From IMG/VR virus record IMGVR_UViG_3300028809_000010: 20,000 bases of DNA. The stretch is one strand, 5' to 3'. Below the pieces are notes generated by a model, which was not told where the DNA came from, searched no databases, and saw only the letters and a list, made by a program, of their open reading frames with translations. Source of the stretch: an uncultured virus (IMG/VR IMGVR_UViG_3300028809_000010). Its lineage: Duplodnaviria; Heunggongvirae; Uroviricota; Caudoviricetes. Made by a program: the position numbers and the translations under genes. Shown in pieces: positions 1-18,370 of the stretch; positions within the stretch are counted from its first letter, which is position 1; every line of letters starts with the position of its first letter.

Positions 1-1
1 A

Positions 2-649
2 GCACTTCAGCACGTCACCGGTGGACATTCGATGCCGGGGGTCGTCGGTGCCCTGCTCTGAATAAGGGTGGGGCACCGGCGATCTCGCCATTTCAACGAA
101 ATGATCTCGGCCGCAATCCAAATGGCCGGTGACCTGATCGCAGCAATGATCGGCGTTCCCCCCGTTGGCGGTGCTGCGGACGCAATTCTGAAACCCCTTT
201 ATACAGACGTCTTTTTAGCATTTATGCACTGGAAAGACTTGGGGCGCAAGGCAACTCTCGGCGACTTCTGCTACCAGGAGCGCTGGGCCGAAGGTAGCGA
301 CAGGGCCTATACGTTATCCGCCATTGTCGCACTCAGGACGTCTATCTGGGCGACCAGGCAGACTTTCACGCATCGACTGGAAGTGGCAGACGGTGCGCCG
401 TGGCTGGTGGGTCAGCGCGGGCGCGGCCATTTCTACCTCGGCCACCGCGTCGGCTCCGTCCCCAAGGGCACGCCCAAGGGGAAGATCTACGTCGACCGCG
501 TCACCGAAATCGGCCTCACCTGGGACCGGCAGACAACGCCTACGTGGCAGGTAATTATCGGCGAGCGCGTCATGGAAGATCCAATCCTCAAGGCGCTCAA
601 GAAGGTCAAGGAAATCGCGGGTATCGCCCGTGACCTCGGCGTGCTCTGA
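2..649 (+). CDS. Minor tail protein (mycobacteriophage D29/L5 gp28-like, Gp37-like family), 5' truncated by the window and interrupted by a 51-nt stop-containing insert at 44-94
   Basis: Frame starting at 2 reads ALQHVTGGHSMPGV (to 43), then TGA at 59-61; the same frame continues NEMISAAIQMAGDLIAAMIGVPPVGGAADAILKPLYTD...GAPWLVGQRGRGHFYLGHRVG from 95 to the stop at 649. Recalled homologs carry GGxSMPGVNExISAA contiguously. Followed by a DUF2744 gene, as in actinophage tail modules. Confidence 0.85.
44..94 (+). other. 51-nt in-frame intervening element with a 16-bp hairpin and an internal TGA
   Basis: GTCGGTGCCCTGCTCT (44-59) pairs with AGGGTGGGGCACCGGC (65-80) including 4 G-U pairs, loop GAATA. 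The stem can extend via 38-43/81-86. Both junctions follow TC (42-43 and 93-94). Removing 44-94 restores PGV-NE. Confidence 0.8.
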
Positions 650-664
650 CGAAGGAGGCCCGCA

Positions 665-1159
665 ATGCCCAAGAAGAACTTCGCCCGGCAAGAGGATTGT
701 GATCCGGCGAATCCGGACGAGCATTTCCTGTGGGCGCTGATGACGATTCCATACGGCCCGAAGCAGACTCAGCCGATTCAGCAGAACATCGCGCGCACCA
801 TGAGTCGGCATCTGCACGAGCTCGGGTTTCGTCATCACCCCAAACTCCAGACCAAGACGCTCCAGATGCCCCTGCGGGGTGACAAGACCAACCTCAACGG
901 CTCGGCCATCTGGGTGCCCATCGGTACCGAGGTGCCGGAGCCGATCGAGGATTCGCTGCCCAACGTCGATTCGATGACCCCGCAGGAGCGCGAACACCTG
1001 GACAGGGAGCTCGACAAGTACCGCAAGATCCAGTCGAACCCTGTGCCGGAGCACGCCCGCGCGAGGGAGACCAGCTGGAAAGAGGTCCGCTCGAGGCACG
1101 TGAAGAAGGCGAGCGAGGTGATCAATGGGACTGACACCGGGACAGGACCAGCCGAGTAA
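665..1159 (+). CDS. Minor tail region protein, DUF2744 / phage gp29-like
   Basis: SD GAAGGAGG; motifs EHFLWAL, SRHLHELGFRHHP, LNGSAIWVP typical of this family; directly follows the gp28-like gene. Confidence 0.8.
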   Translation: MPKKNFARQEDCDPANPDEHFLWALMTIPYGPKQTQPIQQNIARTMSRHLHELGFRHHPKLQTKTLQMPLRGDKTNLNGSAIWVPIGTEVPEPIEDSLPNVDSMTPQEREHLDRELDKYRKIQSNPVPEHARARETSWKEVRSRHVKKASEVINGTDTGTGPAE

Positions 1160-1856
1160 TTCCTACGGCACCAACAACTTCAACACCGCCGACAACTGGA
1201 CCGAAGCCAGTATCCGTAGTTTCGGCAAGGCCGACGTACTCGACTCCTACGAGGGTGGCGAGACCGAGCTGGACATCCAGATCAAGCAGCCTATCCAGGA
1301 CTTGATTGATGACGTCGACCTGCTCAACGGTGTTTCCGCTTACGGCGCCGCCTACATGAGCGCGAATATCTGGAACATCAACAACGAGCCGATCCTGCCC
1401 TACTCCACGCAGATCGGCCCGAACAAGCTGGTGGATATCGCTCCCGACAGCCCGGGGTCACTGACCTACGGAGAGCTTCGTGGCTACGACCCGGGTCTGT
1501 GGCAGGTGCATTTCGCGACCCGCGCCGAGGGGACTCCGTACTCCGGGGACGACTGGGCCGGGGTCAACATGTACATCGACATCTACGACAGCCCGAGCCA
1601 CATCCTCTTCTCGTACAACCCGAAAACGGTACAGAGTCCGGGCACTTCCGAGGCCACGCTCTGCAATACGTACTCCTTCGTGGTGCCGGAGGTCGTGGAC
1701 CACTTCGACGTGTGGATGACCTGCTTCTCCCACAAGTGGAGGAAATTCACCGGCGGGGCGGCCTGGTCGATTCTCGCGCTGCGGCGCATTTCCATCGACG
1801 TAGATCACGACGACGACCCCGACGACACCGTCCCAGATGGGAATGATCCGCCGTGA
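1125..1856 (+). CDS. Probable minor tail protein (243 aa)
   Basis: SD GAGGT; N-terminal TP motif, beta-rich acidic C-terminal region with LPYSTQIGP; tail-module position. Confidence 0.65.
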   Translation: MGLTPGQDQPSNSYGTNNFNTADNWTEASIRSFGKADVLDSYEGGETELDIQIKQPIQDLIDDVDLLNGVSAYGAAYMSANIWNINNEPILPYSTQIGPNKLVDIAPDSPGSLTYGELRGYDPGLWQVHFATRAEGTPYSGDDWAGVNMYIDIYDSPSHILFSYNPKTVQSPGTSEATLCNTYSFVVPEVVDHFDVWMTCFSHKWRKFTGGAAWSILALRRISIDVDHDDDPDDTVPDGNDPP

Positions 1857-2476
1857 CACCTATCGAGGAATGCCGCGCGCTGCCGGAGAACGACTGGCTG
1901 GGGGAGCAGGAGGGGCGTGAGTATCCGCGTGACCGTGGTGGCAGCTTCGCCAGGTACGTCCACGGCGACATCTACTTTCATCCCGAGTACGGCACGCAGA
2001 CCATCGGCGACCCGTTTCGTCTGGTCTGGGCACAGCACGGGTACGAAAAGGGCTGGCTCGGATACCCGCTCACCGGCCACAACTTCTACAGCAACTCCGG
2101 CCGCCGACTGCAAGAGTTCGAACACGGCTGGCTTACCCAGATCAGTGAGGGCGCACCGGTTTACGCGACCTGGATCGACCCTGAGCTGTACGGCTGGCCT
2201 ACGGAGACGGCGGTGGGGCTGACGGGTGGCCACATCATCCAGCGGACCACCGAGGGCAAGATGCTCCGTTCGCCGGACGGCACCGTCACCCGATACGAGC
2301 TCGACGAGCTGACCCCGCCGGAGATCGCCTACCGAGAGCGGCCGAAGCACTTCCCGACCTACGCCCAGCGCGAGGAGCAGTGGCTACATCCGGCGCTTCC
2401 CGAGGGGTGGGAGCCGGAGCCGGAATTCCCGGACGGCCTCGACTACGACCCGGACGAGATTCCGGAATACGACTGA
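1853..2476 (+). CDS. LGFP-repeat-containing protein (207 aa)
   Basis: GTGA overlap; GDIYFHPEYGTQTIGDPFRLVWAQHGYEKGWLGYPLT..RLQEFEHG matches the LGFP repeat pattern. Confidence 0.75.
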   Translation: MTPIEECRALPENDWLGEQEGREYPRDRGGSFARYVHGDIYFHPEYGTQTIGDPFRLVWAQHGYEKGWLGYPLTGHNFYSNSGRRLQEFEHGWLTQISEGAPVYATWIDPELYGWPTETAVGLTGGHIIQRTTEGKMLRSPDGTVTRYELDELTPPEIAYRERPKHFPTYAQREEQWLHPALPEGWEPEPEFPDGLDYDPDEIPEYD

Positions 2477-2492
2477 AAACGAAAGGCCCGCA

Positions 2493-2813
2493 ATGGCAAA
2501 GAAGGTAGCGCGCAGCGCACGAATCGAGATCCGAGAGTCCACCGAACACGAGTGGGTCGACATCTCCGACCACGTCACCGGATGGGATTGGATTGTCCGC
2601 GCGGGGGCTCTGTACGTCCTCAAGCTGCATCTGACATACGACCCGGCCGAGCACGACCTGAACAACAAGAAGGTCACCATCTCCAGCGTCCGGATTTCCG
2701 ACTACCTCCAGGCGTACCAGTTCGATGCGTCCGATCACCTGACCCTAGACCTGTACTGCGACGCAGACCGTCTCCGCATCAACGGCACAGCGCCTTGGGA
2801 GGAGCCGAGGTGA
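2493..2813 (+). CDS. Hypothetical protein (106 aa)
   Basis: SD GAAAGG, GC3-rich codons, tight packing. Confidence 0.7.
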   Translation: MAKKVARSARIEIRESTEHEWVDISDHVTGWDWIVRAGALYVLKLHLTYDPAEHDLNNKKVTISSVRISDYLQAYQFDASDHLTLDLYCDADRLRINGTAPWEEPR

Positions 2814-2974: not shown

Positions 2975-4692
2975 CCCGCACCACAGTAGATTTCGCTGCC
3001 AAGCTGATATCGCCGCAAGCCATCAAGGACGCCGGGCACGAGGGCGTGATGGTCTACGTCTCGCCGAGTCGGCCCGGGTCGAACTTCGCGGCCAAGCCGA
3101 TCCAGCGGGCGTTCACTAATGAGTGCCGTTCAATCGGATTGAACATCGTCTCGATCTGGCAGTTCGGCAAGCCCGGCAACGCCCAGGCCCCGAGCGACTG
3201 GACCACCGGTTTCGAGGGCGGCCAGCGGATGGCGACCGAAGCTCAGGCCCGGCACCTCCAGGCAGGCGGACCCGATCACGCACCGATCTTCTTCGCCGTC
3301 GACGAGGACTTGAGCATCGACAACTGGAACCGGACGGCCGTCGAGTTCTTCCGGGGCGTCAACAGCGTCCTGGGCGTGCAGCGGACCGGCGTCTACGGAT
3401 CGTCGAAGGTGTGCTCCTGGGCGGTGGAGGACGGCGTCATCGGACGTAGCCGTACCCACGGGCGCTTCTGGGCGTGGCAGACGCGGGCGTGGTCCGGAGG
3501 GGAGCTCTCGCCCGAGGCCGTCCTGTTCCAGCGCGTCATCGACACACCCTCCAACCCCGGCCCCTTGATCGACGGCGCCTCCGTGGACGTCAACGACATC
3601 TGGGCCGACGACTACGGACAGTGGAGCGACAAGGCTCCGGAAGGCCCTTCCATGGCACAGAAACCCGACTTCCAAGAGATCGACCGCTTCGGCAATTCCC
3701 GCTCCAACCGCTTCAACGCACGCGTCACCAACTGGCTGATCCACACCCAGGAGGGCAACGGCACTGCGGAGTCGCTGGCGGGCTACCTCAACAACCAGGC
3801 CAACGGCGTCTCCTACCACTACACGGTCCGCGACGGCGTGGTTGTGAATGTGGTCGACACCGACTACGCCAGCTGGTCCGTCCTGGACGCCAACAGCTAC
3901 ACGATCAACCTCTGTTTCGCGGGCAGCTACGCCAGCTGGACTCGGGAGCAGTGGCTCGAGCGTGAACACGACATCCGGATCGCGGCGTGGCTGGCGGTGC
4001 AGGACGCGAAGAAGTACGGCTTCTCCGTCGAGGTCATCGCGCCCCCGTACCACCAGGCGCCGGGCATCTCCGATCACCGCTACGTCACCGAGGAGCTGGG
4101 GATCGGCACGCACACCGACGTCGGCCGCAACTTCCCGTGGGATGTGCTGGCGCGGTTCGTCGCGGAGTACACCGAGGCCGGTCCGATCCGGGTTCCGAAC
4201 GCGATCAACGACTGCGAGGCCGCCAACGCCTGGCTGGGGGAGCGGTTCACCAAGGAGGAGCTGCGCACGCCCGACGGCAAGGGCCGCTTCGTCCAGTACG
4301 ACAACGGCTTCATCTACTGGTCTCCGGACTCGGGCGCGCACCCCATCCCGAAGGATCTGTTCCCGAAGTTCGGTGATCTCGGCTGGGAGGTCGGTCCGCT
4401 GGGTTACCCGACGACCGATCCGACGAAGCTCACCGATGGTTGGGTCCAGGGCTTCCAGGGCGGCGCGCTCTACAAGAAGCTCGACCAGCCCGCCCGGTGG
4501 GTGCACGGCGAGATCCGCAACCGCTGGAACCGGACCGGCTTCGAGAACGGCCCGCTGGGTTGGCCCACCTCCGACGAGTTCCCCTTCGGCGACGGTGCCG
4601 CGCAGGACTTCGAGAAGGGCCGCATCTACTGGGCCCCGAAGCCGACTGTCGTGGTCCTGGCCGACGGCTCGGGGCTCAAGGACGCGGCATGA
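2971..4692 (+). CDS. lysA: Endolysin (lysin A): DUF1906/Rv2525c-like glycoside hydrolase + Amidase_2 + C-terminal LGFP repeats
   Basis: Start re-assigned to ATG 2971 (SD GGAGG, ATGA overlap). DUF1906 motifs PIFFAVD, GVYG, WAWQT; amidase motifs LIHTQEG, VSYHY, SWSVLDAN, HTDVGRNFPW; LGYP/LGWP repeats. Confidence 0.92.
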   Translation: MTRTTVDFAAKLISPQAIKDAGHEGVMVYVSPSRPGSNFAAKPIQRAFTNECRSIGLNIVSIWQFGKPGNAQAPSDWTTGFEGGQRMATEAQARHLQAGGPDHAPIFFAVDEDLSIDNWNRTAVEFFRGVNSVLGVQRTGVYGSSKVCSWAVEDGVIGRSRTHGRFWAWQTRAWSGGELSPEAVLFQRVIDTPSNPGPLIDGASVDVNDIWADDYGQWSDKAPEGPSMAQKPDFQEIDRFGNSRSNRFNARVTNWLIHTQEGNGTAESLAGYLNNQANGVSYHYTVRDGVVVNVVDTDYASWSVLDANSYTINLCFAGSYASWTREQWLEREHDIRIAAWLAVQDAKKYGFSVEVIAPPYHQAPGISDHRYVTEELGIGTHTDVGRNFPWDVLARFVAEYTEAGPIRVPNAINDCEAANAWLGERFTKEELRTPDGKGRFVQYDNGFIYWSPDSGAHPIPKDLFPKFGDLGWEVGPLGYPTTDPTKLTDGWVQGFQGGALYKKLDQPARWVHGEIRNRWNRTGFENGPLGWPTSDEFPFGDGAAQDFEKGRIYWAPKPTVVVLADGSGLKDAA

Positions 4693-4775
4693 ACTTCTCG
4701 GCCGAAACCCTGGCCCTGATGAACACCTGGCTCGCAAATCACAAGAAGGACAACGAAAATGAAGCATCTCCGTAA
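4689..4775 (+). CDS. Possible 28-aa peptide in the lysis cassette
   Basis: ATGA overlap with lysA; MNFSAETLALMNTWLANHKKDNENEASP fills the gap before the holin. Confidence 0.4.
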   Translation: MNFSAETLALMNTWLANHKKDNENEASP

Positions 4776-4974
4776 TCTCGGCGCCTACAACAAGGCTCTG
4801 GCGGCCGGTGTCGGCTCGCTGGCAACCGTGCTCTCGGCCAACGAGGTATTTCTGCCGGGCGGCTGGGTGACCACTGCTCTCGGCGTCGCCACCGTCATCG
4901 CGACCTTCCTGGTGACCAACCAGGACCGGGTCGACGCTTTCGGTGACGATCTGGCCGACGCGCTGGAGAAGTAG
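4759..4974 (+). CDS. Holin (71 aa, two predicted TM helices)
   Basis: SD AAGGA; YNKALAAGVGSLATVL and WVTTALGVATVIATFLVTN hydrophobic segments; follows lysA. Confidence 0.75.
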   Translation: MKHLRNLGAYNKALAAGVGSLATVLSANEVFLPGGWVTTALGVATVIATFLVTNQDRVDAFGDDLADALEK

Positions 4975-4977
4975 ACC

Positions 4978-5265
4978 ATGGCCTGGCCCGAGCTGATCAT
5001 GACGGCGCTCGGCTCGGGCGTGGCGGTCCAGGGCATGAACTGGTTGGCCAACCGAGGCAAGAACAAGGCCGATGCCAGTGCGACACAGGTGGATTCGATG
5101 CTCAAGCAGCTCGAACGACTCCAGAAAGAGCACGACGACCTCAAGGACGAACTGAAAGCGTTCCGCAAGGCCCTCTACCCTCACCAGAGGTGGGACTTGC
5201 TGGCCTGGAAGCGAATCCTCGAGGTCGATCCCGAGTTCCCTCCGCCCCCCGATCTCTACATCTGA
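4978..5265 (+). CDS. Membrane-anchored coiled-coil lysis accessory protein (second holin-like)
   Basis: SD GGAG; N-terminal hydrophobic segment, heptad region, proline-rich end, as in actinophage lysis cassettes. Confidence 0.65.
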   Translation: MAWPELIMTALGSGVAVQGMNWLANRGKNKADASATQVDSMLKQLERLQKEHDDLKDELKAFRKALYPHQRWDLLAWKRILEVDPEFPPPPDLYI

Positions 5266-5312
5266 AGACCCCCCTGCTCGATGGCTCCGGCTGTCGGGTG
5301 GGGGTCTTTTTT
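5265..5312 (+). terminator. Intrinsic terminator ending the late/lysis transcript
   Basis: AAGACCCCCCTGCTCGATGGC-TCCG-GCTGTCGGGTGGGGGTCTT ending in a T6 run. Confidence 0.9.
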
Positions 5313-5317
5313 GTGCC

Positions 5318-5346
5318 TTGACCGTTTAAACGCTGTCCCGTACTGT
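5318..5346 (+). promoter_or_regulatory. SigA-type promoter
   Basis: TTGACC (5318-5323), 17-nt spacer, TACTGT (5341-5346). Confidence 0.8.
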
Positions 5347-5370
5347 GGCTCCTGTCACCGTTTAAACGCT
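5321..5370. repeat. Two identical 14-bp operator-like sites ACCGTTTAAACGCT
   Basis: Exact copies at 5321-5334 and 5357-5370; core CGTTTAAACG is a perfect palindrome. Confidence 0.85.
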
Positions 5371-5389
5371 ACCGACGAAGGCAGGGCCG

Positions 5390-5902
5390 ATGACCGCGTT
5401 CGCCCCCCGGGTTTCCGCAGTACTCAGGTCCGCTGGCCTGCCCGTCATCCGCTACGGCACGCACCCCGGCAACTGGCTGGGCATCCGCGTCGGCAACGAA
5501 GGCAATGTCGGGGGCCGGGCTCAATGTTCCGTGCACTTCCACATGGACGGCGAGCTGGAGTGGTCGGACCAGGCGATGGCTGTCCTGCTGGCGAAGGGGT
5601 TTCAGGTCGAGCGACTGCCGGGGATGTCCATGCTCACCGTCCGCGCCAGCAGCCCCGGTCAGCAGGAGGACATCGCCGGGGTGGTCGCCGCCAGTGGTCT
5701 CGACATGGTCCAGCCGACCCGCAGCGAGTGGTTGGTCAATCTCCCTGGTCGACGCGGCGCCTACTCGATCCGACAGGCCGGGCAGGGTGACAGGGCCCGC
5801 TTCTCCGTCCAGGGCCATCCGGCGCGAGCCCTCGGCAAGAATCTACGGACCATGCGCTCGGCCATCGACATCATCGAAAACGACATCAAGGAGCAATCAT
5901 GA
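5390..5902 (+). CDS. Hypothetical protein (170 aa)
   Basis: First ORF after the promoter, SD GAAGG, ATGA-coupled to the next gene. Confidence 0.7.
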   Translation: MTAFAPRVSAVLRSAGLPVIRYGTHPGNWLGIRVGNEGNVGGRAQCSVHFHMDGELEWSDQAMAVLLAKGFQVERLPGMSMLTVRASSPGQQEDIAGVVAASGLDMVQPTRSEWLVNLPGRRGAYSIRQAGQGDRARFSVQGHPARALGKNLRTMRSAIDIIENDIKEQS

Positions 5903-6072
5903 TCGCTGTCATCCTGCGCCCGCACAGCAACACCAACCCGTCGGAGAAGTTCCGCGTCGTCGATTCGGAGGTGTGGATCAAAAAGCAGGCTGCCACCCCC
6001 ATTCTCGGCGAGTGCGACACCTTCTTCGACGCCATCACCCTGCGCGATCAGCTCAACGCAGCGGAGGCGTAA
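5899..6072 (+). CDS. Hypothetical protein (57 aa)
   Basis: SD AAGGAG, ATGA overlap; MIAVILRPHSNTN...QLNAAEA. Confidence 0.7.
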   Translation: MIAVILRPHSNTNPSEKFRVVDSEVWIKKQAATPILGECDTFFDAITLRDQLNAAEA

Positions 6073-6198
6073 ATGGCCCAGCAACTGACTGACGACGAGA
6101 AGAACATCCACCCCGACTCGGACCTGGTCGAAGGGCGCTGCATCACCTGTGGCGACTACTCCGGCATCGACGAGTTCTGCCCCGACTGCGAGGAATGA
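6073..6198 (+). CDS. Small zinc-ribbon peptide (41 aa)
   Basis: SD GGAGG; CITC and CPDC pairs. Confidence 0.65.
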   Translation: MAQQLTDDEKNIHPDSDLVEGRCITCGDYSGIDEFCPDCEE

Positions 6199-6199
6199 C

Positions 6200-6430
6200 A
6201 TGACCGCACCGATCGCCCGCTACCGACAGTTCCATGAGATCGCCGCGTCCCAGCCCGACAACCCACTGTCCCCGGTCCTCCAGGAGGCTCTGCGCACGCT
6301 CGACATCATCCAAAACGGCCGCGCGACAGGCGAAGAGGAGGATTGGAGCGGCGATGCGATGCGCAGGATGATCGACTGGGCCGTCGGGGGAATGGCCGAC
6401 TTCGCCGACGAGAAGGTGGCACGGAAGTGA
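6200..6430 (+). CDS. Hypothetical protein (76 aa)
   Basis: SD GAGGA; starts MTAPIARYRQF; tight packing. Confidence 0.65.
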   Translation: MTAPIARYRQFHEIAASQPDNPLSPVLQEALRTLDIIQNGRATGEEEDWSGDAMRRMIDWAVGGMADFADEKVARK

Positions 6431-6717
6431 TCAGGATGCATAGCGAGGCTCTGGACGCGGTCGTCCGCGAGAAGCTGGGCGCCACGTGGACCCGGCTCAC
6501 TCCCCGGGGAATCGTCATCTCCGAACTCCACGATCTGGCCGGGATGATCGAGGCGGTGTCGGAACTGGCCGCGCAGTGGTGCTTCGACGAATACGGCGGC
6601 GTCCAGGCCGAGGAGCTCCAGGACGCCATCACGAAGGTATCGGCGGATATTCAGCTGCTGGACAGTGCCGCCGGTGTATCGGTACGGCTGCCCGAGCTGA
6701 AGGCGGTGGCGGGATGA
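6427..6717 (+). CDS. Hypothetical protein (96 aa)
   Basis: GTGA overlap upstream and ATGA overlap downstream. Confidence 0.65.
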   Translation: MIRMHSEALDAVVREKLGATWTRLTPRGIVISELHDLAGMIEAVSELAAQWCFDEYGGVQAEELQDAITKVSADIQLLDSAAGVSVRLPELKAVAG

Positions 6718-7109
6718 GTGCCATGCTGATCCGCCCCGACGGCACCCGCGAGATCGTCCAGATCCCCAAGGGCACTCTCGGCCAGGAGCTCCTGGGCTGC
6801 CGCATGACCGAGATCGTCCCTGTCGGCGCCTCTCTCGAAATGTGGTGCGACGAGGAGGGGTTGATGACGGCGGACCCCCAGCTCAACATCGTCGCGACCA
6901 TGATGCGCTGGGAACTCTCCGGCGGCCCCGAGAACAAGCTGGACCCCAACGACTTCACCGTGGTCGGCAACGCTCTGTTTGTGGACACGGTCATCGACGG
7001 GGACGGCCACATGGTCCACCGGCAGACGATGGAAGGCTCGGTGCTGCTGGACCGGCTGAACCGCGCTGCCGACCGTGGCCTCCGCGTCAAGGAGAGGATG
7101 GGCCGATGA
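6714..7109 (+). CDS. DUF3846-like protein
   Basis: MLIRPDG...MWCDEEGL...N.VAT...VVGNALF pattern. Confidence 0.7.
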   Translation: MSAMLIRPDGTREIVQIPKGTLGQELLGCRMTEIVPVGASLEMWCDEEGLMTADPQLNIVATMMRWELSGGPENKLDPNDFTVVGNALFVDTVIDGDGHMVHRQTMEGSVLLDRLNRAADRGLRVKERMGR

Positions 7110-10936: not shown

Positions 10937-11019
10937 GGACCGGTAGCTCAACGGAAGAGCACTGCCGCGCGGATCAACAGGTACAGAAGACGCAGGTTCG
11001 AATCCTGCCCGGTCCCCCA
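10937..11019 (+). tRNA. tRNA-like gene with an aberrant, expanded anticodon arm (isotype undetermined)
   Basis: GGACCGG/CCGGTCC acceptor, TA, GCTC-AACGGAA-GAGC D arm, GCAGG-TTCGAAT-CCTGC T arm, C discriminator, encoded CCA; anticodon arm 8 nt too long with a 13-nt loop. Confidence 0.8.
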
Positions 11020-12033: not shown

Positions 12034-12194
12034 ACTTCAACCCCTACGAGCAGGTCGAATCACCGGCCGACGCTCGAGTATTCGCCAAGACGGTCCGGAG
12101 TCACTGGGTCGCTCTGGTCCAGGAGGGGTTCACCGAGGACGAGGCGTTCCGCATCATTCGGGACCTGTTCGCCGCTAACCGAGGGGGTGAGTGA
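12030..12194 (+). CDS. Hypothetical protein (54 aa)
   Basis: ATGA overlap, SD GAGGT; ALVQEGFTEDEAF motif common in small actinophage proteins. Confidence 0.7.
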   Translation: MNFNPYEQVESPADARVFAKTVRSHWVALVQEGFTEDEAFRIIRDLFAANRGGE

Positions 12195-12705
12195 GGTGCT
12201 AGTGGCCTCCGGTTTCGTTGTCGGCGTCGGTCTCTGCTTCATCGCTGTAGCCATCTTCGGGTGGAAAGAGTCGCGAGCCGAGAAGAAGAAGCCCGACAAC
12301 TTCGGTCGCCCTATCGCCGTCAAGCTCGACGCAAACCCGCATGACCGCCGCGCCGACGAACTCCGCCGAAAAGGTCTCGAGGCCGAGAACAAGGAACTCG
12401 AGGAAGAGGCCAGGCGGACCGCCTTGGAAAAGCTGGCGGAAGTGCCCGCATTCAAAAGCACTCGCTATTGCCCGAAGTGCGACAGTGAGGATCTGAATCG
12501 CCGCCATGACAAAGACTTCCGGCTCGGCTACTTCAAGCGCGTCGAGGACCCAGCGACGCGGAGCGAATTCTTCATCTCTTCCCGCTACATCAAACTGCGC
12601 GGTGAAGTACTCGCCGTCAGCTGCAACGGCTGTGGTTTCGCGATCGGCCCCGAACGCACGGCCGACTTTAGCGACAAGATCCGGCTGGTCCGCGAGGGCT
12701 GGTGA
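12187..12705 (+). CDS. Membrane-anchored protein with coiled coil and split zinc ribbon (172 aa)
   Basis: N-terminal TM helix; CPKC and CNGC. Confidence 0.7.
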   Translation: MSEVLVASGFVVGVGLCFIAVAIFGWKESRAEKKKPDNFGRPIAVKLDANPHDRRADELRRKGLEAENKELEEEARRTALEKLAEVPAFKSTRYCPKCDSEDLNRRHDKDFRLGYFKRVEDPATRSEFFISSRYIKLRGEVLAVSCNGCGFAIGPERTADFSDKIRLVREGW

Positions 12706-12716
12706 AAGGAATACCC

Positions 12717-13007
12717 ATGAACAGCAAAGAAGAACTGATCCGTCATCAATACAAGGTGCTGGCTCACGTGAAGTCCGAACGCAACCGTCTGAAAGAGATG
12801 GAGGCGGCAGCAAAGGAAGCCCTACTCGATCTGATCGGCGACGACTACACCGGTGTCTACGTGGCCCCTGACGGCGAGCTCCTGTTCCGTCGAGACTACT
12901 ACGCCTCCAGCAACTTCGACATCAAAGCCTTCCGCGAGAAGCACCCGGAGCTGGCCGAGGAGTTCACCCGCCGCAGCTCCGCGTACAAGCTGACGATCGG
13001 GGAGTGA
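12717..13007 (+). CDS. Hypothetical protein resembling the C-terminal domain of YqaJ-type exonucleases
   Basis: SD GAAAGGA; coiled coil then FDIKAFREKHPELAEEFTR. Confidence 0.6.
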   Translation: MNSKEELIRHQYKVLAHVKSERNRLKEMEAAAKEALLDLIGDDYTGVYVAPDGELLFRRDYYASSNFDIKAFREKHPELAEEFTRRSSAYKLTIGE

Positions 13008-13008
13008 C

Positions 13009-13377
13009 ATGGGCGACGTACTCGTGCTGAAAGCGGCGATCGACTACCAGATCACGATGTCCCTCGGTCAGATCGCGGGATTCACCTCGTCCACCCCGAT
13101 GCTGGCAAAAGCGCGCACTGTCTATCTCGCGCTGCTGTCGGAGCTGTCGTCGATGGCCGAGATGGACGACCCCGCAACGCATCTCCAAGGAATGATCCGG
13201 CGCACCCGAGATGACCTGGAGGGCGTGGACATCCCCAGCGAGGCCGAAATCGTCAGCCGGGGTACCGCCGCCGACTGGAACGACCTGCCTCGCTTCATCG
13301 CCGCCATCAAGGACACCTACGTCAAGTCGATGGGCGCGATGCTCGTTTACGCCGGATACGAAGTCGAAACCGAATGA
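13009..13377 (+). CDS. Hypothetical protein (122 aa)
   Basis: SD GGGGAG; tight packing. Confidence 0.7.
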   Translation: MGDVLVLKAAIDYQITMSLGQIAGFTSSTPMLAKARTVYLALLSELSSMAEMDDPATHLQGMIRRTRDDLEGVDIPSEAEIVSRGTAADWNDLPRFIAAIKDTYVKSMGAMLVYAGYEVETE

Positions 13378-13592
13378 AGAACTACGCCGGTGTTTTTTGG
13401 AAGACCCGAAGTGGCATAGGCGTCTACATTCCCGAGCTTCATGCCTACACGGAAGTCCCGGCGAACGGCAATGTCGATGCCCGCGTCCGCGATCTGATCG
13501 TCCTGAACTGCCCGAAAGATTCGTGGTGGTCCTGGAATTCGACTTTCACCCTCCAGCGTCTCAACGAGCCCCCGAAAGGATTCATGCGATGA
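13374..13592 (+). CDS. Hypothetical protein (72 aa), possibly HicB N-terminal-like
   Basis: ATGA overlaps at both ends; GVYIPELHAYTE...VDARVRDLI pattern. Confidence 0.55.
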   Translation: MKNYAGVFWKTRSGIGVYIPELHAYTEVPANGNVDARVRDLIVLNCPKDSWWSWNSTFTLQRLNEPPKGFMR

Positions 13593-14005
13593 CCGACATC
13601 AACTGGCCGCTCATGACGGAAACCCTCGACCACATCCACAAGAACCCGCACCTCTGGAACCAGGGGCTGTGGGCGTGTGGCACCCAGCGCTGCATCGCAG
13701 GCCACGCCGCCGAGCTGTCCGGCAAGATCCCAGCGGACCATGTCGTCGCGAGCGGCGGAATGATTCTCGAGCCCCGATGGCTGCACCGCATCGGCGAGGG
13801 GCTGTATCCGTCCGGCGCCGCTCACTCAGCCATTGACAGCGGTGAGCTGAAGCGGCTGCACGTCGCCGAGGTCGCCCGCGAGGCTCTGGGCCTGCCCGAC
13901 GAAGAGCTCTTCAACGGCGAGAACACCTGGGAAGACGTCATGGCCACGGTGTCGGAGTGGGCCGCCGAGGACGGAATCGACCTGCCGAAGGAGTGGTTCG
14001 CATGA
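13589..14005 (+). CDS. Conserved actinophage hypothetical protein (138 aa)
   Basis: SD GAAAGGA; P..WNQG.W.CGT..CIAGHA and A..ALGL...LF...NT motifs. Confidence 0.7.
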   Translation: MTDINWPLMTETLDHIHKNPHLWNQGLWACGTQRCIAGHAAELSGKIPADHVVASGGMILEPRWLHRIGEGLYPSGAAHSAIDSGELKRLHVAEVAREALGLPDEELFNGENTWEDVMATVSEWAAEDGIDLPKEWFA

Positions 14006-14289
14006 CCCCGCTCGAGCAGCTGGTGGGGGCCCGGGAGCTTATCGCCGAGCACGGCTGGGTCAGGGGAAACTACGGGGACCGGAACGTCGGCTTCTGCGCG
14101 CTCGGAGCACTCCACGTGGCGAGCAAGAGCTGGACCAGCTGGGGCGCCCAGAACCTCCTGGTCAAGGCGGGTGGCGCTGGAGCTCTTGGCGTGATCAGCC
14201 ACAACGACATCCACATCCAGTCCAAGCAGGAAGCCCTGGAGTGGTTCGACAAGGCGATCCGGCTGGCCCAGGCGGAGGTGGCGGCATGA
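14002..14289 (+). CDS. DUF6197-like protein
   Basis: ARELIAEHGW..G...G.FCALGAL...HND...S..EALEWFDKAI. Confidence 0.7.
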   Translation: MTPLEQLVGARELIAEHGWVRGNYGDRNVGFCALGALHVASKSWTSWGAQNLLVKAGGAGALGVISHNDIHIQSKQEALEWFDKAIRLAQAEVAA

Positions 14290-14477
14290 GCGGGCGGATC
14301 AAGATCGTCAACGACCGCGTTCTTCTCGGCGGCGAGGAGCTGACCGAAACCGACGCCAGAGACCTGATTGCCGAGCTCGAGGTCACGCTCAGCCTTCTCG
14401 AGCAGTGGCGCTACGACAAGTGGCGGCGGGAGGTCCGGGAGCGCTACGGGCCGAAGGAGGTGACTGATGGCGCGTAA
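14286..14477 (+). CDS. Hypothetical protein (63 aa)
   Basis: ATGA overlap, SD GGAGGT. Confidence 0.65.
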   Translation: MSGRIKIVNDRVLLGGEELTETDARDLIAELEVTLSLLEQWRYDKWRREVRERYGPKEVTDGA

Positions 14478-18042: not shown

Positions 18043-18370
18043 GTGGAAGAAGCTCAACCGCCACGGCACCAAAGAGAAGTCCGACTGGCTGACCCAGCTG
18101 TGGTTCCACGGGACGGAAAAGCAGTTCTCGAAGTGGATCGACGACATCTGTCTCCTCAAGAGCAGCAAGGGCTTCGAGCTCGGGACGCATCAGCAGATCC
18201 GGGAAGGCGTGGGGGATTACCTCGACCCGGCCGAACGGGCGCTGAAAGAGATCGAGGCACTGATCCAGCGAGCCAACCAGGACAGCGAAGTCCACAAGGC
18301 GTATATCTCCGGCCTCGGCACGGCCCGAACGATGCTGCGCAAAGAAATCAACAGCAGACACGGATTCTAG
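18035..18370 (+). CDS. Hypothetical protein (111 aa)
   Basis: SD AAAGGG, overlaps the exonuclease end. Confidence 0.65.
   Translation: MSKWKKLNRHGTKEKSDWLTQLWFHGTEKQFSKWIDDICLLKSSKGFELGTHQQIREGVGDYLDPAERALKEIEALIQRANQDSEVHKAYISGLGTARTMLRKEINSRHGF

What the first reader, a model, noticed from the sequence alone, without database searches (positions are those of the whole stretch)
44..94. Minor tail gene is split by a 51-nt hairpin insert containing an in-frame TGA
Seen: frame 2 reads GGHSMPGV, then 17 extra codons including TGA (59-61) at the top of a 16-bp hairpin, then NEMISAAIQMAG. Both junctions follow TC. Knowledge (recalled): D29 gp28-like proteins have PGVNE contiguous, and T4 gene 60 has a 50-nt coding gap with a stop inside a stem-loop. 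Inference: the rest of the gene shows no decay and the stem is held by G-U pairs, so the insert looks selected as RNA and must be spliced, bypassed or read through. It is too short for a self-splicing intron and has no exactly matched take-off/landing codon pair (GTC or CTC versus TTC).
Basis: partly seen in the sequence, partly recalled or inferred. Interest (0 to 1): 0.9.

Follow-up and report, generated by a model that had tools for sequence, protein, structure and literature searches.

The report
Hairpin coding gap in phage tail-hub gene
The only tail-hub gene of this soil actinobacterial phage is cut by 51 untranslatable bases that fold into a long RNA hairpin, and related prophages keep similar gaps under selection, so the gap must be skipped during expression, most likely by ribosomes hopping over it.

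Summary
Window 44-94 is a 51-nt insert carrying TGA (59-61). It lies between the invariant motifs GGHSMPGV and NE.IS of a Sipho_Gp37 baseplate-hub gene. The hairpin has 22 bp (38-59/65-86), not 16.

It is not a one-off. I found 23 distinct gaps of 48-72 nt at five conserved sites of this gene family, in Nocardia and Rhodococcus genomes, viral contigs and metagenomes.
- Only 8 of 23 lengths are multiples of three.
- 14 of 23 hold an in-frame stop.
- 8 of 15 site-D gaps hold no start codon for the downstream part.
- All checked exons stay open.
- Gene pairs that share related gaps show dN/dS of 0.06-0.25 in both halves, although their gap lengths differ modulo 3.
- The hairpin covaries: 11 of 19 pairs show compensatory changes, including a pair with the last exon base.
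- The last gap triplet resembles the last exon codon.

Read-through, reinitiation and gene decay therefore fail as general explanations. My best reading (confidence about 0.55) is a mobile hairpin "coding gap" crossed by translational bypassing. It works like T4 gene 60 or yeast mitochondrial byps but is not a member of either. RNA-level excision is not excluded. No RNA or protein data exist, and I found no published description.

The parts
1..43 (+). Last 14 codons of exon 1 of the Sipho_Gp37 / baseplate-hub (Tal-like) minor tail gene. The gene starts upstream of the window, at G001 24774. Exon 1 is 366 codons up to Val GTC.
   Evidence: The fold of an intact homologue matches the Bxb1 tail tip chain 9d93_Oa (E 1.7e-51, 41% identity) and gp27/VgrG-like hubs.
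41..43 (+). GTC (Val366), the last exon-1 codon and putative take-off codon. It lies inside the base of the hairpin.
   Evidence: In relatives its third base covaries with the 3' arm (C-G 7, U-A 7, C-A 1 of 15). In L267 the codon is GTG and the arm ends CAC.
44..94 (+). The 51-nt coding gap, absent from intact homologues.
   Evidence: Related gaps of 48-72 nt occur in 22 other distinct loci.
38..86 (+). RNA hairpin: 5' arm 38-59, loop 60-64 (GAATA), 3' arm 65-86. It has 22 bp, 6 of them G-U.
59..61 (+). In-frame TGA at the tip of the hairpin. It ends the 371-codon upstream ORF.
   Evidence: An in-frame stop inside the gap is present in 14 of 23 related gaps, in all 8 whose length is a multiple of 3.
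87..91 (+). Unpaired tail GCCAT between the hairpin foot and the last gap triplet.
   Evidence: tails are mostly 4-7 nt in relatives when only the main hairpin is counted.
92..94 (+). TTC, the last triplet of the gap and putative landing codon. It matches take-off GTC at positions 2 and 3.
95..649 (+). Exon 2: 184 codons, NEMISAAIQMAGD...ARDLGVL, plus stop TGA at 647-649.

Best explanation
The 51 bases are one copy of a family of small, mobile, self-contained RNA hairpin 'coding gaps'. They lodge in conserved motifs of the baseplate-hub gene of Nocardiaceae phages and prophages. The hub protein is still made as one chain, because translating ribosomes skip the gap (programmed translational bypassing).

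Proposed mechanism:
1. Peptidyl-tRNA-Val leaves the last exon codon (GTC 41-43), which sits in the foot of the hairpin.
2. The mRNA slides through the ribosome.
3. The 22-bp hairpin refolds behind the ribosome.
4. Decoding resumes at AAC 95, with the tRNA sitting on the near-matching triplet TTC 92-94, a few bases 3' of the hairpin foot.

Shown here: the gap, its hairpin, its recurrence, its covariation, the frame-independence of gap lengths, and purifying selection on both exons.

Inferred: that the skipping is done by the ribosome rather than at the RNA level, the take-off and landing points, and the role of hairpin refolding.
For: (1) The gene is single-copy and apparently needed. PF14594 occurs once in G001. 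It is the hub/Tal of the tail tip. The rest of the virion module is intact: terminase large subunit, portal, protease-capsid fusion, adaptor, terminator, major tail protein, chaperones, a 1830-codon ORF I take by size and position to be the tape measure (not scanned), distal tail protein and lysin.

(2) The gap recurs.
- 9 of 80 genome loci carry gaps.
- 5 of 80 viral homologue loci carry gaps.
- 11 of 125 loci from a junction pattern scan carry gaps.
- Together these give 23 distinct gaps at five sites: LCW|, NPF|, RIW|, LLF| and PGV|.

(3) The gaps are frame-independent. Lengths are 48-72 nt, and only 8 of 23 are multiples of 3. Within clades that share related gaps the length changes (51, 52, 53) while dN/dS stays at 0.06-0.25 in both exons, with dS 0.18-0.79. 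All 14 site-D genes tested, and all 9 loci re-checked at sites A-E (8 distinct genes, one of them site-D L267; L244 repeats L015), have both exons open to the family C-terminus.

(4) The RNA structure is selected. Of 19 consensus pairs, 11 show compensatory changes. 99.3% of cells are paired against 76.5% in shuffles (0 of 500 shuffles reach it) and 42-50% when the pairing is slid. There are 26 G-U cells against 1 A-C. The last exon base is itself in a covarying pair.

(5) There is a take-off/landing signature. The last gap triplet shares at least 2 letters with the last exon codon in 16 of 19 gaps, against 0-3 of 19 at 18 other offsets. It follows the exon codon at each site (TGG..TGG/TGA/TGC/TGT, TTT..TTC/CTC, GTY..GTC/TTC/GCC/GTG, GTG..TTG). 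9 of 23 pairs are readable by one tRNA.

(6) Precedents exist. T4 gene 60 has a 50-nt gap with its take-off codon in a stem. Yeast mitochondrial byps tolerate two-out-of-three landing matches (review PMC5009743, passages read). Pairing of mRNA leaving the ribosome has been proposed as a driver of forward bypassing (bioRxiv 10.1101/2024.12.09.627546, abstract read).
Against: - There are no RNA or protein data. No RNA run holds the locus.
- The A-site codon after the putative take-off is an ordinary Val or Ala codon (GTC/GTG/GTT/GCC), not a stop or hungry codon as in gene 60 and the byps.
- In this window the stop lies 5 codons further on.
- 14 of 23 landing triplets are not cognate, and 3 mismatch at the middle position (GTY..GCC).
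- The triplet likeness could equally be a decayed 2-3-bp target-site duplication.
- A 20-29-bp G+C-rich hairpin is far larger than the gene 60 take-off stem-loop, and a ribosome would normally unwind it and read on.
- No nascent-peptide motif is shared among the five sites.
- No Shine-Dalgarno-like run lies just 5' of the landing triplet; the tails are A/C/T-rich.
- No isolated, plaque-forming phage in the INPHARED collection matched any of 4 gap queries, so the viability of gap-bearing phages is not shown.
Confidence: 0.55

Rival explanations
1. The gap is removed from the mRNA (an unconventional small intron). A host or phage endonuclease plus an RNA ligase, or an unknown ribozyme activity, would recognise the hairpin that pairs the exon end with the gap, cut on both sides and join the exons.
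For: Removal must be exact and frame-independent. The last 4-7 exon bases pair with the far end of the gap and covary with it, like an internal guide. With splicing, the imperfect landing triplets would not matter.
Against: No Rfam family matches. The best hits are generic hairpin models far below their gathering scores. At 48-72 nt the gap is far below group I/II intron size. No bacterial system that excises such hairpins from mRNA is known to me (recalled). The 3' boundary lies a variable 4-14 nt beyond the hairpin foot, with no second structure to mark it. Splicing does not explain why the last triplet mimics the last exon codon at every site.
Confidence: 0.15
2. The gene is expressed as two polypeptides, an N-terminal part of 371 aa and a C-terminal part of about 190 aa, that assemble non-covalently. 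The C part would start by reinitiation, in this window at GTG 68.
For: The window has GTG 68 in frame, 2 codons after the TGA, preceded by AAGG. Purifying selection on exon 2 would also fit a separate protein. Split homing-endonuclease targets can work as two chains (bioRxiv 10.1101/2022.08.31.505936, discussion read).
Against: 8 of 15 site-D gaps have no ATG/GTG/TTG in the exon-2 frame inside the gap. Where one exists it lies in the 3' arm of the hairpin. The next start inside exon 2 would remove the invariant N and E. The AAGG in the window abuts GTG with no spacing. The break sits inside the most conserved motif of the family.
Confidence: 0.1
3. In this phage the in-frame UGA is simply read through, for example by tRNA-Trp, of which the phage carries its own copy. 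That gives a hub with a 17-residue insertion.
For: The window's gap is 51 nt and in frame, with a single UGA. G001 encodes a tRNA-Trp(CCA) just before the 1830-codon ORF (G001 18262-23754) that I take, by size and position, to be the tape-measure gene.
Against: 15 of 23 related gaps shift the frame. L068 has two in-frame stops, and others use TAA or TAG. All 8 in-frame gaps keep an in-frame stop, which looks like selection against translating the gap (Fisher 0.006, though the cases are not independent). The UGA lies in the loop, not upstream of a hairpin as in bacterial SECIS elements. An insertion would split a motif that is invariant in 18 of 18 homologues.
Confidence: 0.07
4. The insert is a selfish palindromic repeat (MITE/REP-like) that has simply knocked out the hub gene of a defunct prophage. 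Nothing rescues expression.
For: The hairpin looks like two terminal inverted repeats with a 2-3-bp duplication. Gaps are scattered over the gene tree: at least 4 changes are forced and parsimony gives 11. They occur at five sites, so the element moves. Host genomes hold similar G+C-rich terminator-like hairpins. No isolated phage with a gap was found.
Against: dN/dS is 0.06-0.25 in both exons among genes that share related gaps. No second lesion was found in any of 14 + 9 genes checked. The rest of G001 is intact. The gap is more conserved than synonymous sites in some pairs. The covariance model found no copies outside this gene in 629 kb of loci. In 5 host genomes it found only the gene's own copy plus 2 weak terminator-like hits, but only 150 of about 4,500-6,900 first-look candidates per genome were scored.
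Confidence: 0.08

Closest known systems
Phage T4 gene 60 translational bypass (50-nt coding gap) and its homologues in myovirus topoisomerase genes
   Same: A gap of about 50 nt sits inside a conserved motif of an essential gene. The take-off codon is embedded in a stem. The last gap triplet resembles the take-off codon. The gap is carried by, or behaves as, a mobile insert that recurs at one site. It lies in a region also targeted by other selfish elements (here inteins; bioRxiv 10.1101/2022.08.31.505936, abstract and discussion read).
   Different: There is no sequence or gene-context homology: this is a tail hub gene of actinobacterial siphophages and has no MobA. There is no stop or hungry codon next to the take-off codon. 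The hairpin is 20-29 bp instead of a small take-off stem-loop. Only 9 of 23 codon pairs are cognate. There is no Shine-Dalgarno-like element near the landing point and no shared nascent-peptide signal. Five insertion sites exist rather than one.
byp elements of Magnusiomyces capitatus mitochondria
   Same: Many short inserts of tens of nt sit inside coding sequences, both in-frame and frame-shifting. They behave as mobile elements. Landing with two-out-of-three pairing is accepted (PMC5009743, passages read).
   Different: The byps are mitochondrial and A+T-rich, and rely on an unused A-site codon. They occur in many genes. Here I found gaps in only one gene family, with ordinary A-site codons and bacterial ribosomes.
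Candidate bypassing in Streptomyces phage phiHau3 large terminase
   Same: It is an actinobacterial phage. A conserved junction of an essential virion-assembly gene is interrupted, with secondary structure around the gap (PMC10732093, passages read).
   Different: The phiHau3 gaps are about 10 nt and are triggered by the rare UUA codon. Here the gaps are 48-72 nt, there is no rare codon, and the hairpin fills the gap.
Inteins in the same gene family (PF14890 in Nocardia homologues)
   Same: They sit in the same conserved motifs: at LWF|CFGPAKW, and 6, 9 and 36-38 codons downstream of site D. They are scattered over the tree.
   Different: Inteins are translated and removed at the protein level. 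The gap cannot be, because of its stops and frame shifts, and it has no Hint domain.
MITE / REP-like palindromic repeats
   Same: A short hairpin made of two inverted arms, a possible 2-3-bp duplication, and evidence of movement.
   Different: No multi-copy family was found in the host genomes (limited sensitivity). The stem includes host-gene bases that covary with it. The interrupted gene stays under selection.

Membership tests
Sipho_Gp37 (PF14594) / phrog_110 baseplate hub (Tal-like) minor tail protein (the interrupted gene) | Full-length match to the family profile above the curated cut-off | tested here: met
   The two ORFs together cover profile positions 2-370 of 370 (179 and 104 bits, cut-off 26.2). 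PHROG 110 is covered over 36-579. Read through in G001 the match scores 274.6 bits.
Sipho_Gp37 (PF14594) / phrog_110 baseplate hub (Tal-like) minor tail protein (the interrupted gene) | Hub fold like solved siphophage tail tips | tested here: met
   An AF2 model of intact homologue P0001 (pLDDT 71) matches Bxb1 tail tip 9d93_Oa (E 1.7e-51) and Douge baseplate 8zdo_s (E 1e-40), followed by gp27/VgrG-like hubs. The model is of a 68%-identical homologue, not of the window's protein.
T4 gene 60-type bypass cassette | Non-coding gap of about 50 nt joining two parts of one protein | tested here: met
   The gap is 51 nt, and the flanks abut in 18 of 18 homologues.
T4 gene 60-type bypass cassette | Matched (same-tRNA) take-off and landing codons | tested here: not met
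   The window has GTC versus TTC. Across the family, 9 of 23 are cognate and 14 of 23 match two of three positions, counting third-position pyrimidines as equivalent.
T4 gene 60-type bypass cassette | [quoted passage not shown] | tested here: not met
   The next codon is GTC (Val), and the TGA comes 5 codons later. In relatives the next codon is GTC/GTG/GTT/GCC, and only L085 and L127 have a stop one codon on.
T4 gene 60-type bypass cassette | Take-off codon within a stem-loop | tested here: met
   GTC 41-43 pairs with 81-83. The pair at its third base covaries. The stem is much longer than in gene 60.
T4 gene 60-type bypass cassette | Nascent-peptide signal upstream of take-off | not testable with these tools
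   The upstream peptides differ among the five sites (LCW, NPF, RIW, LLF, GGHSMPGV). Their function cannot be judged from sequence.
T4 gene 60-type bypass cassette | Homology and context: topoisomerase II large subunit, MobA element | tested here: not met
   The gene is a tail hub gene of an actinobacterial siphophage, with no endonuclease gene beside it. Published homologues occur only in myovirus Topo2L (bioRxiv 10.1101/2022.08.31.505936, abstract and discussion).
T4 gene 60-type bypass cassette | Single full-length protein shown experimentally | not testable with these tools
   No RNA run is listed and no proteome is available.
Self-splicing intron (group I/II) or known ribozyme | Match to a curated RNA family, and sufficient size | tested here: not met
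   Rfam 15 at E <= 10 returns only generic hairpin models at 13-17 bits, against gathering scores of 36-100. The gap is 51 nt.
Intein | In-frame, translatable Hint domain | tested here: not met
   The gap contains a stop, and in relatives it shifts the frame. Genuine inteins (PF14890) lie at other points of the family.
MITE / REP-type interspersed repeat | Many copies dispersed in the genome | tested here: inconclusive
   Covariance model R1 hit only the tail-gene gaps in 629 kb. In 5 host genomes it hit only the own copy plus 2 weak terminator-like hairpins, with 150 of about 4,500-6,900 candidates per genome scored. A loose palindrome pattern gave 24-41 hits per genome against 8-14 for the control, mostly generic hairpins.
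Bacterial SECIS / programmed UGA read-through | UGA followed by a downstream hairpin; in-frame continuation conserved | tested here: not met
   The UGA is in the apical loop. Relatives use TAA or TAG, or no stop, and 15 of 23 shift the frame.

The most novel reading that the evidence does not exclude
A self-contained, mobile RNA hairpin of about 50 nt makes ordinary bacterial ribosomes hop over it. It needs no stop or hungry codon at take-off, no dedicated nascent peptide and only a two-of-three landing match. The landing register would be set sterically by the 20-29-bp hairpin refolding at the mRNA exit, a few bases upstream of the resume codon. Such a 'plug-in' bypass module could enter any conserved motif. 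Here it may spread, or be kept, because it breaks the DNA target of the inteins or homing elements that invade the same motifs of the tail-hub gene.
Probability: 0.35. Interest if true: 0.95.

Novelty: new variant of a known kind. Interest (0 to 1): 0.85.

Why it matters
Long-range translational bypassing is known from one phage gene family (T4 gene 60 and its relatives) and from yeast mitochondria. It is also proposed for a 10-nt case in a Streptomyces phage.

This finding adds an unrelated, G+C-rich family of 23 natural variants at five sites of one essential gene. The variants differ in length, frame, loop type (UGAAAA or GNRA), stop content and landing triplet. That makes a ready-made mutational series for asking what a ribosome needs in order to skip 50 bases.

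If the gap is instead cut out of the RNA, it would be a new kind of bacterial mRNA processing. Either way there is a practical consequence: gene callers split or truncate these hub genes (one is deposited as a 370-aa fragment, P0023), so such prophages are at risk of being scored as defective.

The co-location with inteins also offers a test of the idea that coding gaps protect against homing elements.

Tried and rejected
- Own-genome search: the window's assembly is not held. I used the nearest record, G001, instead.
- Megablast of window 1-700 against isolated phages found no match.
- An exact 31-mer of the hairpin was not found in viral contigs.
- A single-protein search for relatives in viral contigs found none. 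The alignment-based search worked.
- Other copies in the window: none within 3 mismatches.
- RNA evidence: no RNA holder is listed for window 1-1200. Only contigs could be laid, so splicing, transcript ends and rare gapless DNA could not be examined.
- Rfam: nothing beyond a tRNA.
- Isolated phages carrying such a gap: 4 blastn queries (the window, L068, L014 and L090 junctions) matched only short exon stretches or nothing. This does not exclude diverged gaps there.
- Host-genome copies: the loose palindrome pattern was too unspecific. The CM search scored only 150 candidates per genome and missed the known L052 gap in G005, so its sensitivity is limited.
- Take-off at the codon before the stop (CTC, ACC, GGA, CGT and others) was rejected. 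These codons do not match the landing triplets, and 9 of 23 gaps have no in-gap stop.
- Take-off at GGG with the last gap triplet decoded was rejected, because no GGN lies before it.
- RNase III-type staggered cutting plus ligation was rejected. The register would not restore the frame, and the tail would remain (my reasoning).
- A cruciform or DNA-level reading was rejected. G-U pairs occur only on the sense strand (26 against 1), and removing the palindrome alone does not restore the gene.
- The hairpin at window 5271-5304 turned out to be an ordinary terminator with a T-run.
- Literature: five searches found no description of such gaps in actinophage tail genes. The Cluster O paper's 'coding gap' (PMC4351075, passages read) concerns the tape-measure start and is unrelated. 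Supplements were not consulted.
Full report
**What is there.** Frame 2 of the window reads ...GGHSMPGV, then 17 extra codons (VGALL-TGA-IRVGHRRSRHF), then NEMISAAIQMAGD... and runs on to a stop at 647-649. Bases 38-59 pair with 65-86 in an unbroken 22-bp stem with six G-U pairs and the loop GAATA. The fold has dG -45.6 kcal/mol and z -6.7, and 0 of 200 shuffles fold as well. The stem starts six bases before the insert, inside the exon (GGGGTC). It is the longest hairpin of the phage, and all hairpins of at least 12 bp that allow G-U pairs lie on the + strand.

**The gene.** The window begins inside the gene. The nearest held record, G001, is an IMG/VR contig of 45,310 bp. It is 99.897% identical to the window over 19,483 bases and supplies the upstream part.
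- The upstream ORF has 371 codons and ends at the TGA. The downstream ORF is listed from GTG 68.
- Pfam Sipho_Gp37 covers profile positions 2-249 in the first ORF and 249-370 in the second. PHROG 110 (minor tail protein) covers 36-399 and 400-579. The break falls exactly between V366 and N.
- In an alignment with 18 homologues of 51-68% identity, all 18 have GGHS(M/A)PGV|NE(L/A)IS contiguous. G, G, H, S, G, V, N and E are invariant.
- An AlphaFold model of the closest intact homologue (pLDDT 71) matches the Bxb1 tail-tip chain 9d93_Oa (E 1.7e-51, 41% identity), the Douge baseplate, and then gp27/VgrG-like hubs. The gene is therefore the baseplate hub (Tal-like).
- G001 has only this one copy.
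- Its other virion genes are found whole at the level of PHROG matches: terminase large subunit, portal, protease-capsid fusion, adaptor, tail terminator, major tail protein, chaperone pair, distal tail protein and a 622-aa lysin. A 1830-codon ORF at the tape-measure position was not scanned and is named by size and position only.

**Artefact check.** The insert is identical in G001, in a contig of run X2 (depth 141, possibly the source sample), and in a 173-nt contig of run X4 from another study. No contig lacks it. Contigs cannot show rare variants, and no RNA run was listed.

**It is a family.** I fetched DNA around relatives from GTDB genomes, which gave 80 loci, almost all titled Nocardia, Rhodococcus or allied actinobacteria.
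- 70 hub genes are uninterrupted, 5 of them carrying inteins. 9 are interrupted by short hairpin inserts. 1 locus is cut by a contig end.
- A scan with the junction pattern returned 9 viral and 116 metagenome loci. 11 of these 125 are hub genes with a gap at the same site. The rest are chance matches.
- A homologue fetch from viral contigs gave 5 interrupted genes of 80. One of its two seed patterns favours intact site D.
- After removing identical copies there are 23 distinct gaps.

| Site | Position in the protein | Distinct gaps | Loci |
|---|---|---|---|
| D | PGV\|NE | 16 | window, L068, L014, L033, L017, L019, L087, L091, L127, L147, L167, L085, L088, L089, L090, L267 |
| A | LCW\|(A/S)NPF | 3 | L065, L015, L233 |
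| B | NPF\|LP | 2 | L029, L232 |
| C | LLF\|GPA | 1 | L052 |
| E | RIW\|ILFGP | 1 | L236 |

**Common anatomy.**
- Total length is 48-72 nt.
- The hairpin has 20-29 bp, and its foot includes the last 4-7 exon bases.
- The 5' arm begins G(T/C)N and holds a C-run. The 3' arm holds the matching G-run.
- Loops are UGAAAA/UGAAUA-like or GNRA/UUCG-like.
- An unpaired A/C/T-rich tail, mostly 4-7 nt, leads to a last triplet that resembles the last exon codon.
- A covariance model built from 15 site-D gaps also picks up the gaps at sites A, B and C (E 4e-5 to 2e-3). It finds nothing else in 629 kb of loci, the window and G001.

**Evidence that the gap is skipped and the gene works.**
- Only 8 of 23 lengths are multiples of three, about the one third expected if frame does not matter.
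- All 14 site-D genes examined have at least 362 open codons upstream and 182-186 downstream, ending in the family's ...DLGV(L) terminus. The 9 loci re-checked (8 distinct genes at sites A, B, C and E plus site-D L267; L244 repeats L015) are open in the same way.
- Genes that share related gaps (79-89% gap identity) show strong purifying selection in both halves, although gap lengths within these groups are 51, 52 and 53:

| Pair | dN/dS exon 1 | dN/dS exon 2 |
|---|---|---|
| L088/L090 | 0.06 | 0.13 |
| L088/L089 | 0.15 | 0.15 |
| L089/L090 | 0.14 | 0.13 |
| L033/L091 | 0.21 | 0.17 |
| L014/L033 | 0.25 | 0.24 |
| L014/L091 | 0.22 | 0.15 |

- dS for these pairs is 0.18-0.79. More distant pairs are saturated and uninformative, and I show them as such.
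- Exon 2 is therefore translated in its own frame whatever the gap length.
- A start codon for exon 2 is not a conserved feature. 8 of 15 site-D gaps have none in frame, and the others have a GTG or TTG buried in the 3' arm.
- An in-frame stop inside the gap is present in 14 of 23 gaps. All 8 in-frame gaps have one, against 6 of 15 others (one-sided Fisher 0.006; the cases are related, so this is only a hint).

**Evidence that the hairpin acts as sense-strand RNA.** RNAalifold on 15 site-D gaps gives 19 pairs, 11 of them with compensatory double changes.
- 99.3% of cells pair, against 76.5% in 500 shuffles (0 reach the observed value) and 42-50% when the partner is slid by 1-3 columns.
- The third base of the last exon codon pairs with the 3' arm and covaries: C-G 7, U-A 7, C-A 1. 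In L267, where the exon codon is GTG, the arm ends CAC.
- There are 26 G-U cells against one A-C cell. This fits RNA of the coding strand, not a DNA cruciform or the opposite strand.

**Take-off and landing.** The last gap triplet shares at least two letters with the last exon codon in 16 of 19 gaps. At 18 other offsets the count is 0-3 of 19.

| Exon codon to last gap triplet | Count |
|---|---|
| GTT to GTC | 5 |
| GTC to GTC | 1 |
| GTC to TTC (including the window) | 5 |
| GTG to TTG | 1 |
| GTC to GTG | 1 |
| GTY to GCC | 3 |
| TGG to TGG, TGA, TGC or TGT | 4 |
| TTT to TTC | 2 |
| TTT to CTC | 1 |

Nine of the 23 pairs can be read by one tRNA. This is the signature expected of peptidyl-tRNA re-pairing, with the relaxed two-of-three matching reported for yeast mitochondrial byps (PMC5009743, passages read). 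It could also be a decayed 2-3-bp target duplication. The two readings are compatible: a duplication made on insertion would itself supply a matched pair.

**Mobility and neighbours.** On a tree of an uninterrupted 213-column segment (89 rows, quick search), site-D gaps are scattered.
- At least 4 changes are forced by well-supported branches, and parsimony gives 11.
- Sister genes carry gaps at different sites (L033 D with L052 C; L014 D with L029 B).
- Gapless genes sit next to gapped ones (L011 with L091; L076 with L088-L090).
- One host genome holds two prophages with different gaps at different sites (L017 and L052).
- Inteins of the family lie at LWF|CFGPAKW, one codon after site E and two before site C. 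Others lie 6, 9 and 36-38 codons after site D.
- In five host genomes the model found only each genome's own site-D gap plus two weak, ordinary terminator-like hairpins. Only 150 of about 4,500-6,900 candidates per genome were scored, and a known gap (L052) was missed.

**Mechanism.** Decay, read-through and reinitiation each fail on the family data. What remains is exact, frame-independent skipping. I favour ribosomal bypassing (0.55) for these reasons:
- The element must work wherever it lands and in different phages.
- The take-off codon sits in the stem.
- The last triplet mimics the take-off codon.
- The gap length is that of gene 60.

I infer, and have not shown, that refolding of the long hairpin behind the ribosome drives the slide, and that its foot sets the resume point a few bases downstream. 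This follows the idea that pairing of exiting mRNA drives forward bypassing (bioRxiv 10.1101/2024.12.09.627546, abstract read).

Points against this reading:
- The A-site codon at take-off is an ordinary Val or Ala codon.
- 14 of 23 landing triplets are not cognate, and three mismatch in the middle position.
- The hairpin is far larger than any known take-off stem-loop.
- No shared nascent peptide or Shine-Dalgarno-like element is seen.
- There are no RNA or protein data.

RNA-level excision (0.15) would explain the indifference to landing mismatches, but it has no known machinery, no Rfam match and no marker for the 3' cut. The other rivals are two polypeptides (0.10), UGA read-through in this phage alone (0.07; the phage does carry a tRNA-Trp) and a dead gene (0.08).

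**Comparison with what is known.** The gap works like T4 gene 60 or the byps but is not a member of either. It fails the matched-codon, adjacent-stop and homology/context features of the gene 60 cassette, whose published homologues are confined to myovirus topoisomerase genes (bioRxiv 10.1101/2022.08.31.505936, abstract and discussion read). The Streptomyces phage phiHau3 case involves 10-nt gaps triggered by UUA (PMC10732093, passages read). Five full-text searches found no description of hairpin gaps in actinophage tail genes. Earlier AI notes of this scan list similar hairpin gaps in terminase and polymerase genes of unrelated uncultured phages. I did not test them, and they are not independent support.

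**Verdict.** This is a real, recurrent and selected feature: a new variant of the coding-gap / bypass kind, with the mechanism still to be shown at the bench.

Noticed in passing
Homologues P0077, P0081, P0098, P0104, P0113, P0114, P0116, P0119; loci L028, L042-L044, L083: Mini-inteins (PF14890, about 130-170 aa) interrupt the same hub gene at four points. One is at LWF|CFGPAKW. The others lie after NELISA, after NELISAAIQ and after KPLY(TD), that is at or within 17 codons of the hairpin-gap sites.
   Followed up: partly
window 10937-11019; G001 5094-5654, 18163-18236, 36764-36846: The phage carries seven tRNA genes: Arg-ACG, Ser-CGA, Ser-GCT, Tyr, His, Trp-CCA and Pro-CGG. The codons just before the gap (CAT TCG ATG CCG) include three read by phage tRNAs (His, Ser-CGA, Pro-CGG). 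The tRNA-Trp sits directly before the 1830-codon ORF taken to be the tape-measure gene. This may be coincidence.
   Followed up: no
window 5271-5304: A 15-bp G+C-rich hairpin followed by TCTTTTTTG, just after the 4978-5265 ORF downstream of the lysin gene. It is an ordinary intrinsic terminator, not a member of the gap family.
   Followed up: yes
G001 23765-23802; L006 1478-1521, L015 1379-1420, L017 1486-1529: A 17-20-bp hairpin fills the short spacer between the tape-measure gene and the distal tail protein gene in G001. Similar hairpins (AAAAGG...CCTTTT type) lie about 1 kb upstream of the hub gene in relatives. They may be read-through terminators or RNA processing sites.
   Followed up: no
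G001 196-1656 (-) and 1882-2667 (+): A 486-aa serine integrase sits next to a 261-aa ORF that matches only the middle of the same integrase family (phrog_95 positions 245-445). This is a possible recombinase fragment or a recombination directionality partner.
   Followed up: no
G001 12084-14438: A single 784-aa ORF matches both the head maturation protease and the major head protein families, so it appears to be a protease-capsid fusion.
   Followed up: no
L046 (record titled Staphylococcus chromogenes): A hub gene of the actinobacterial type (40% identity) lies on a 456-kb contig labelled Staphylococcus. This may be contamination or mislabelling of that assembly.
   Followed up: no
Gaps of L029, L236, L267, L015, L052, L088-L091, L167: Read in the exon-1 frame, the C-run of the 5' arm often encodes Pro-Pro (CPP, APP, PPG), motifs known to stall ribosomes without EF-P (recalled). 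This could supply the pause that a stop codon supplies in gene 60.
   Followed up: no
P0023 / L015: The deposited annotation of the Nocardia jiangxiensis prophage hub is a 370-aa C-terminal fragment, because the 72-nt gap splits the gene. Automatic annotation therefore truncates these genes.
   Followed up: partly
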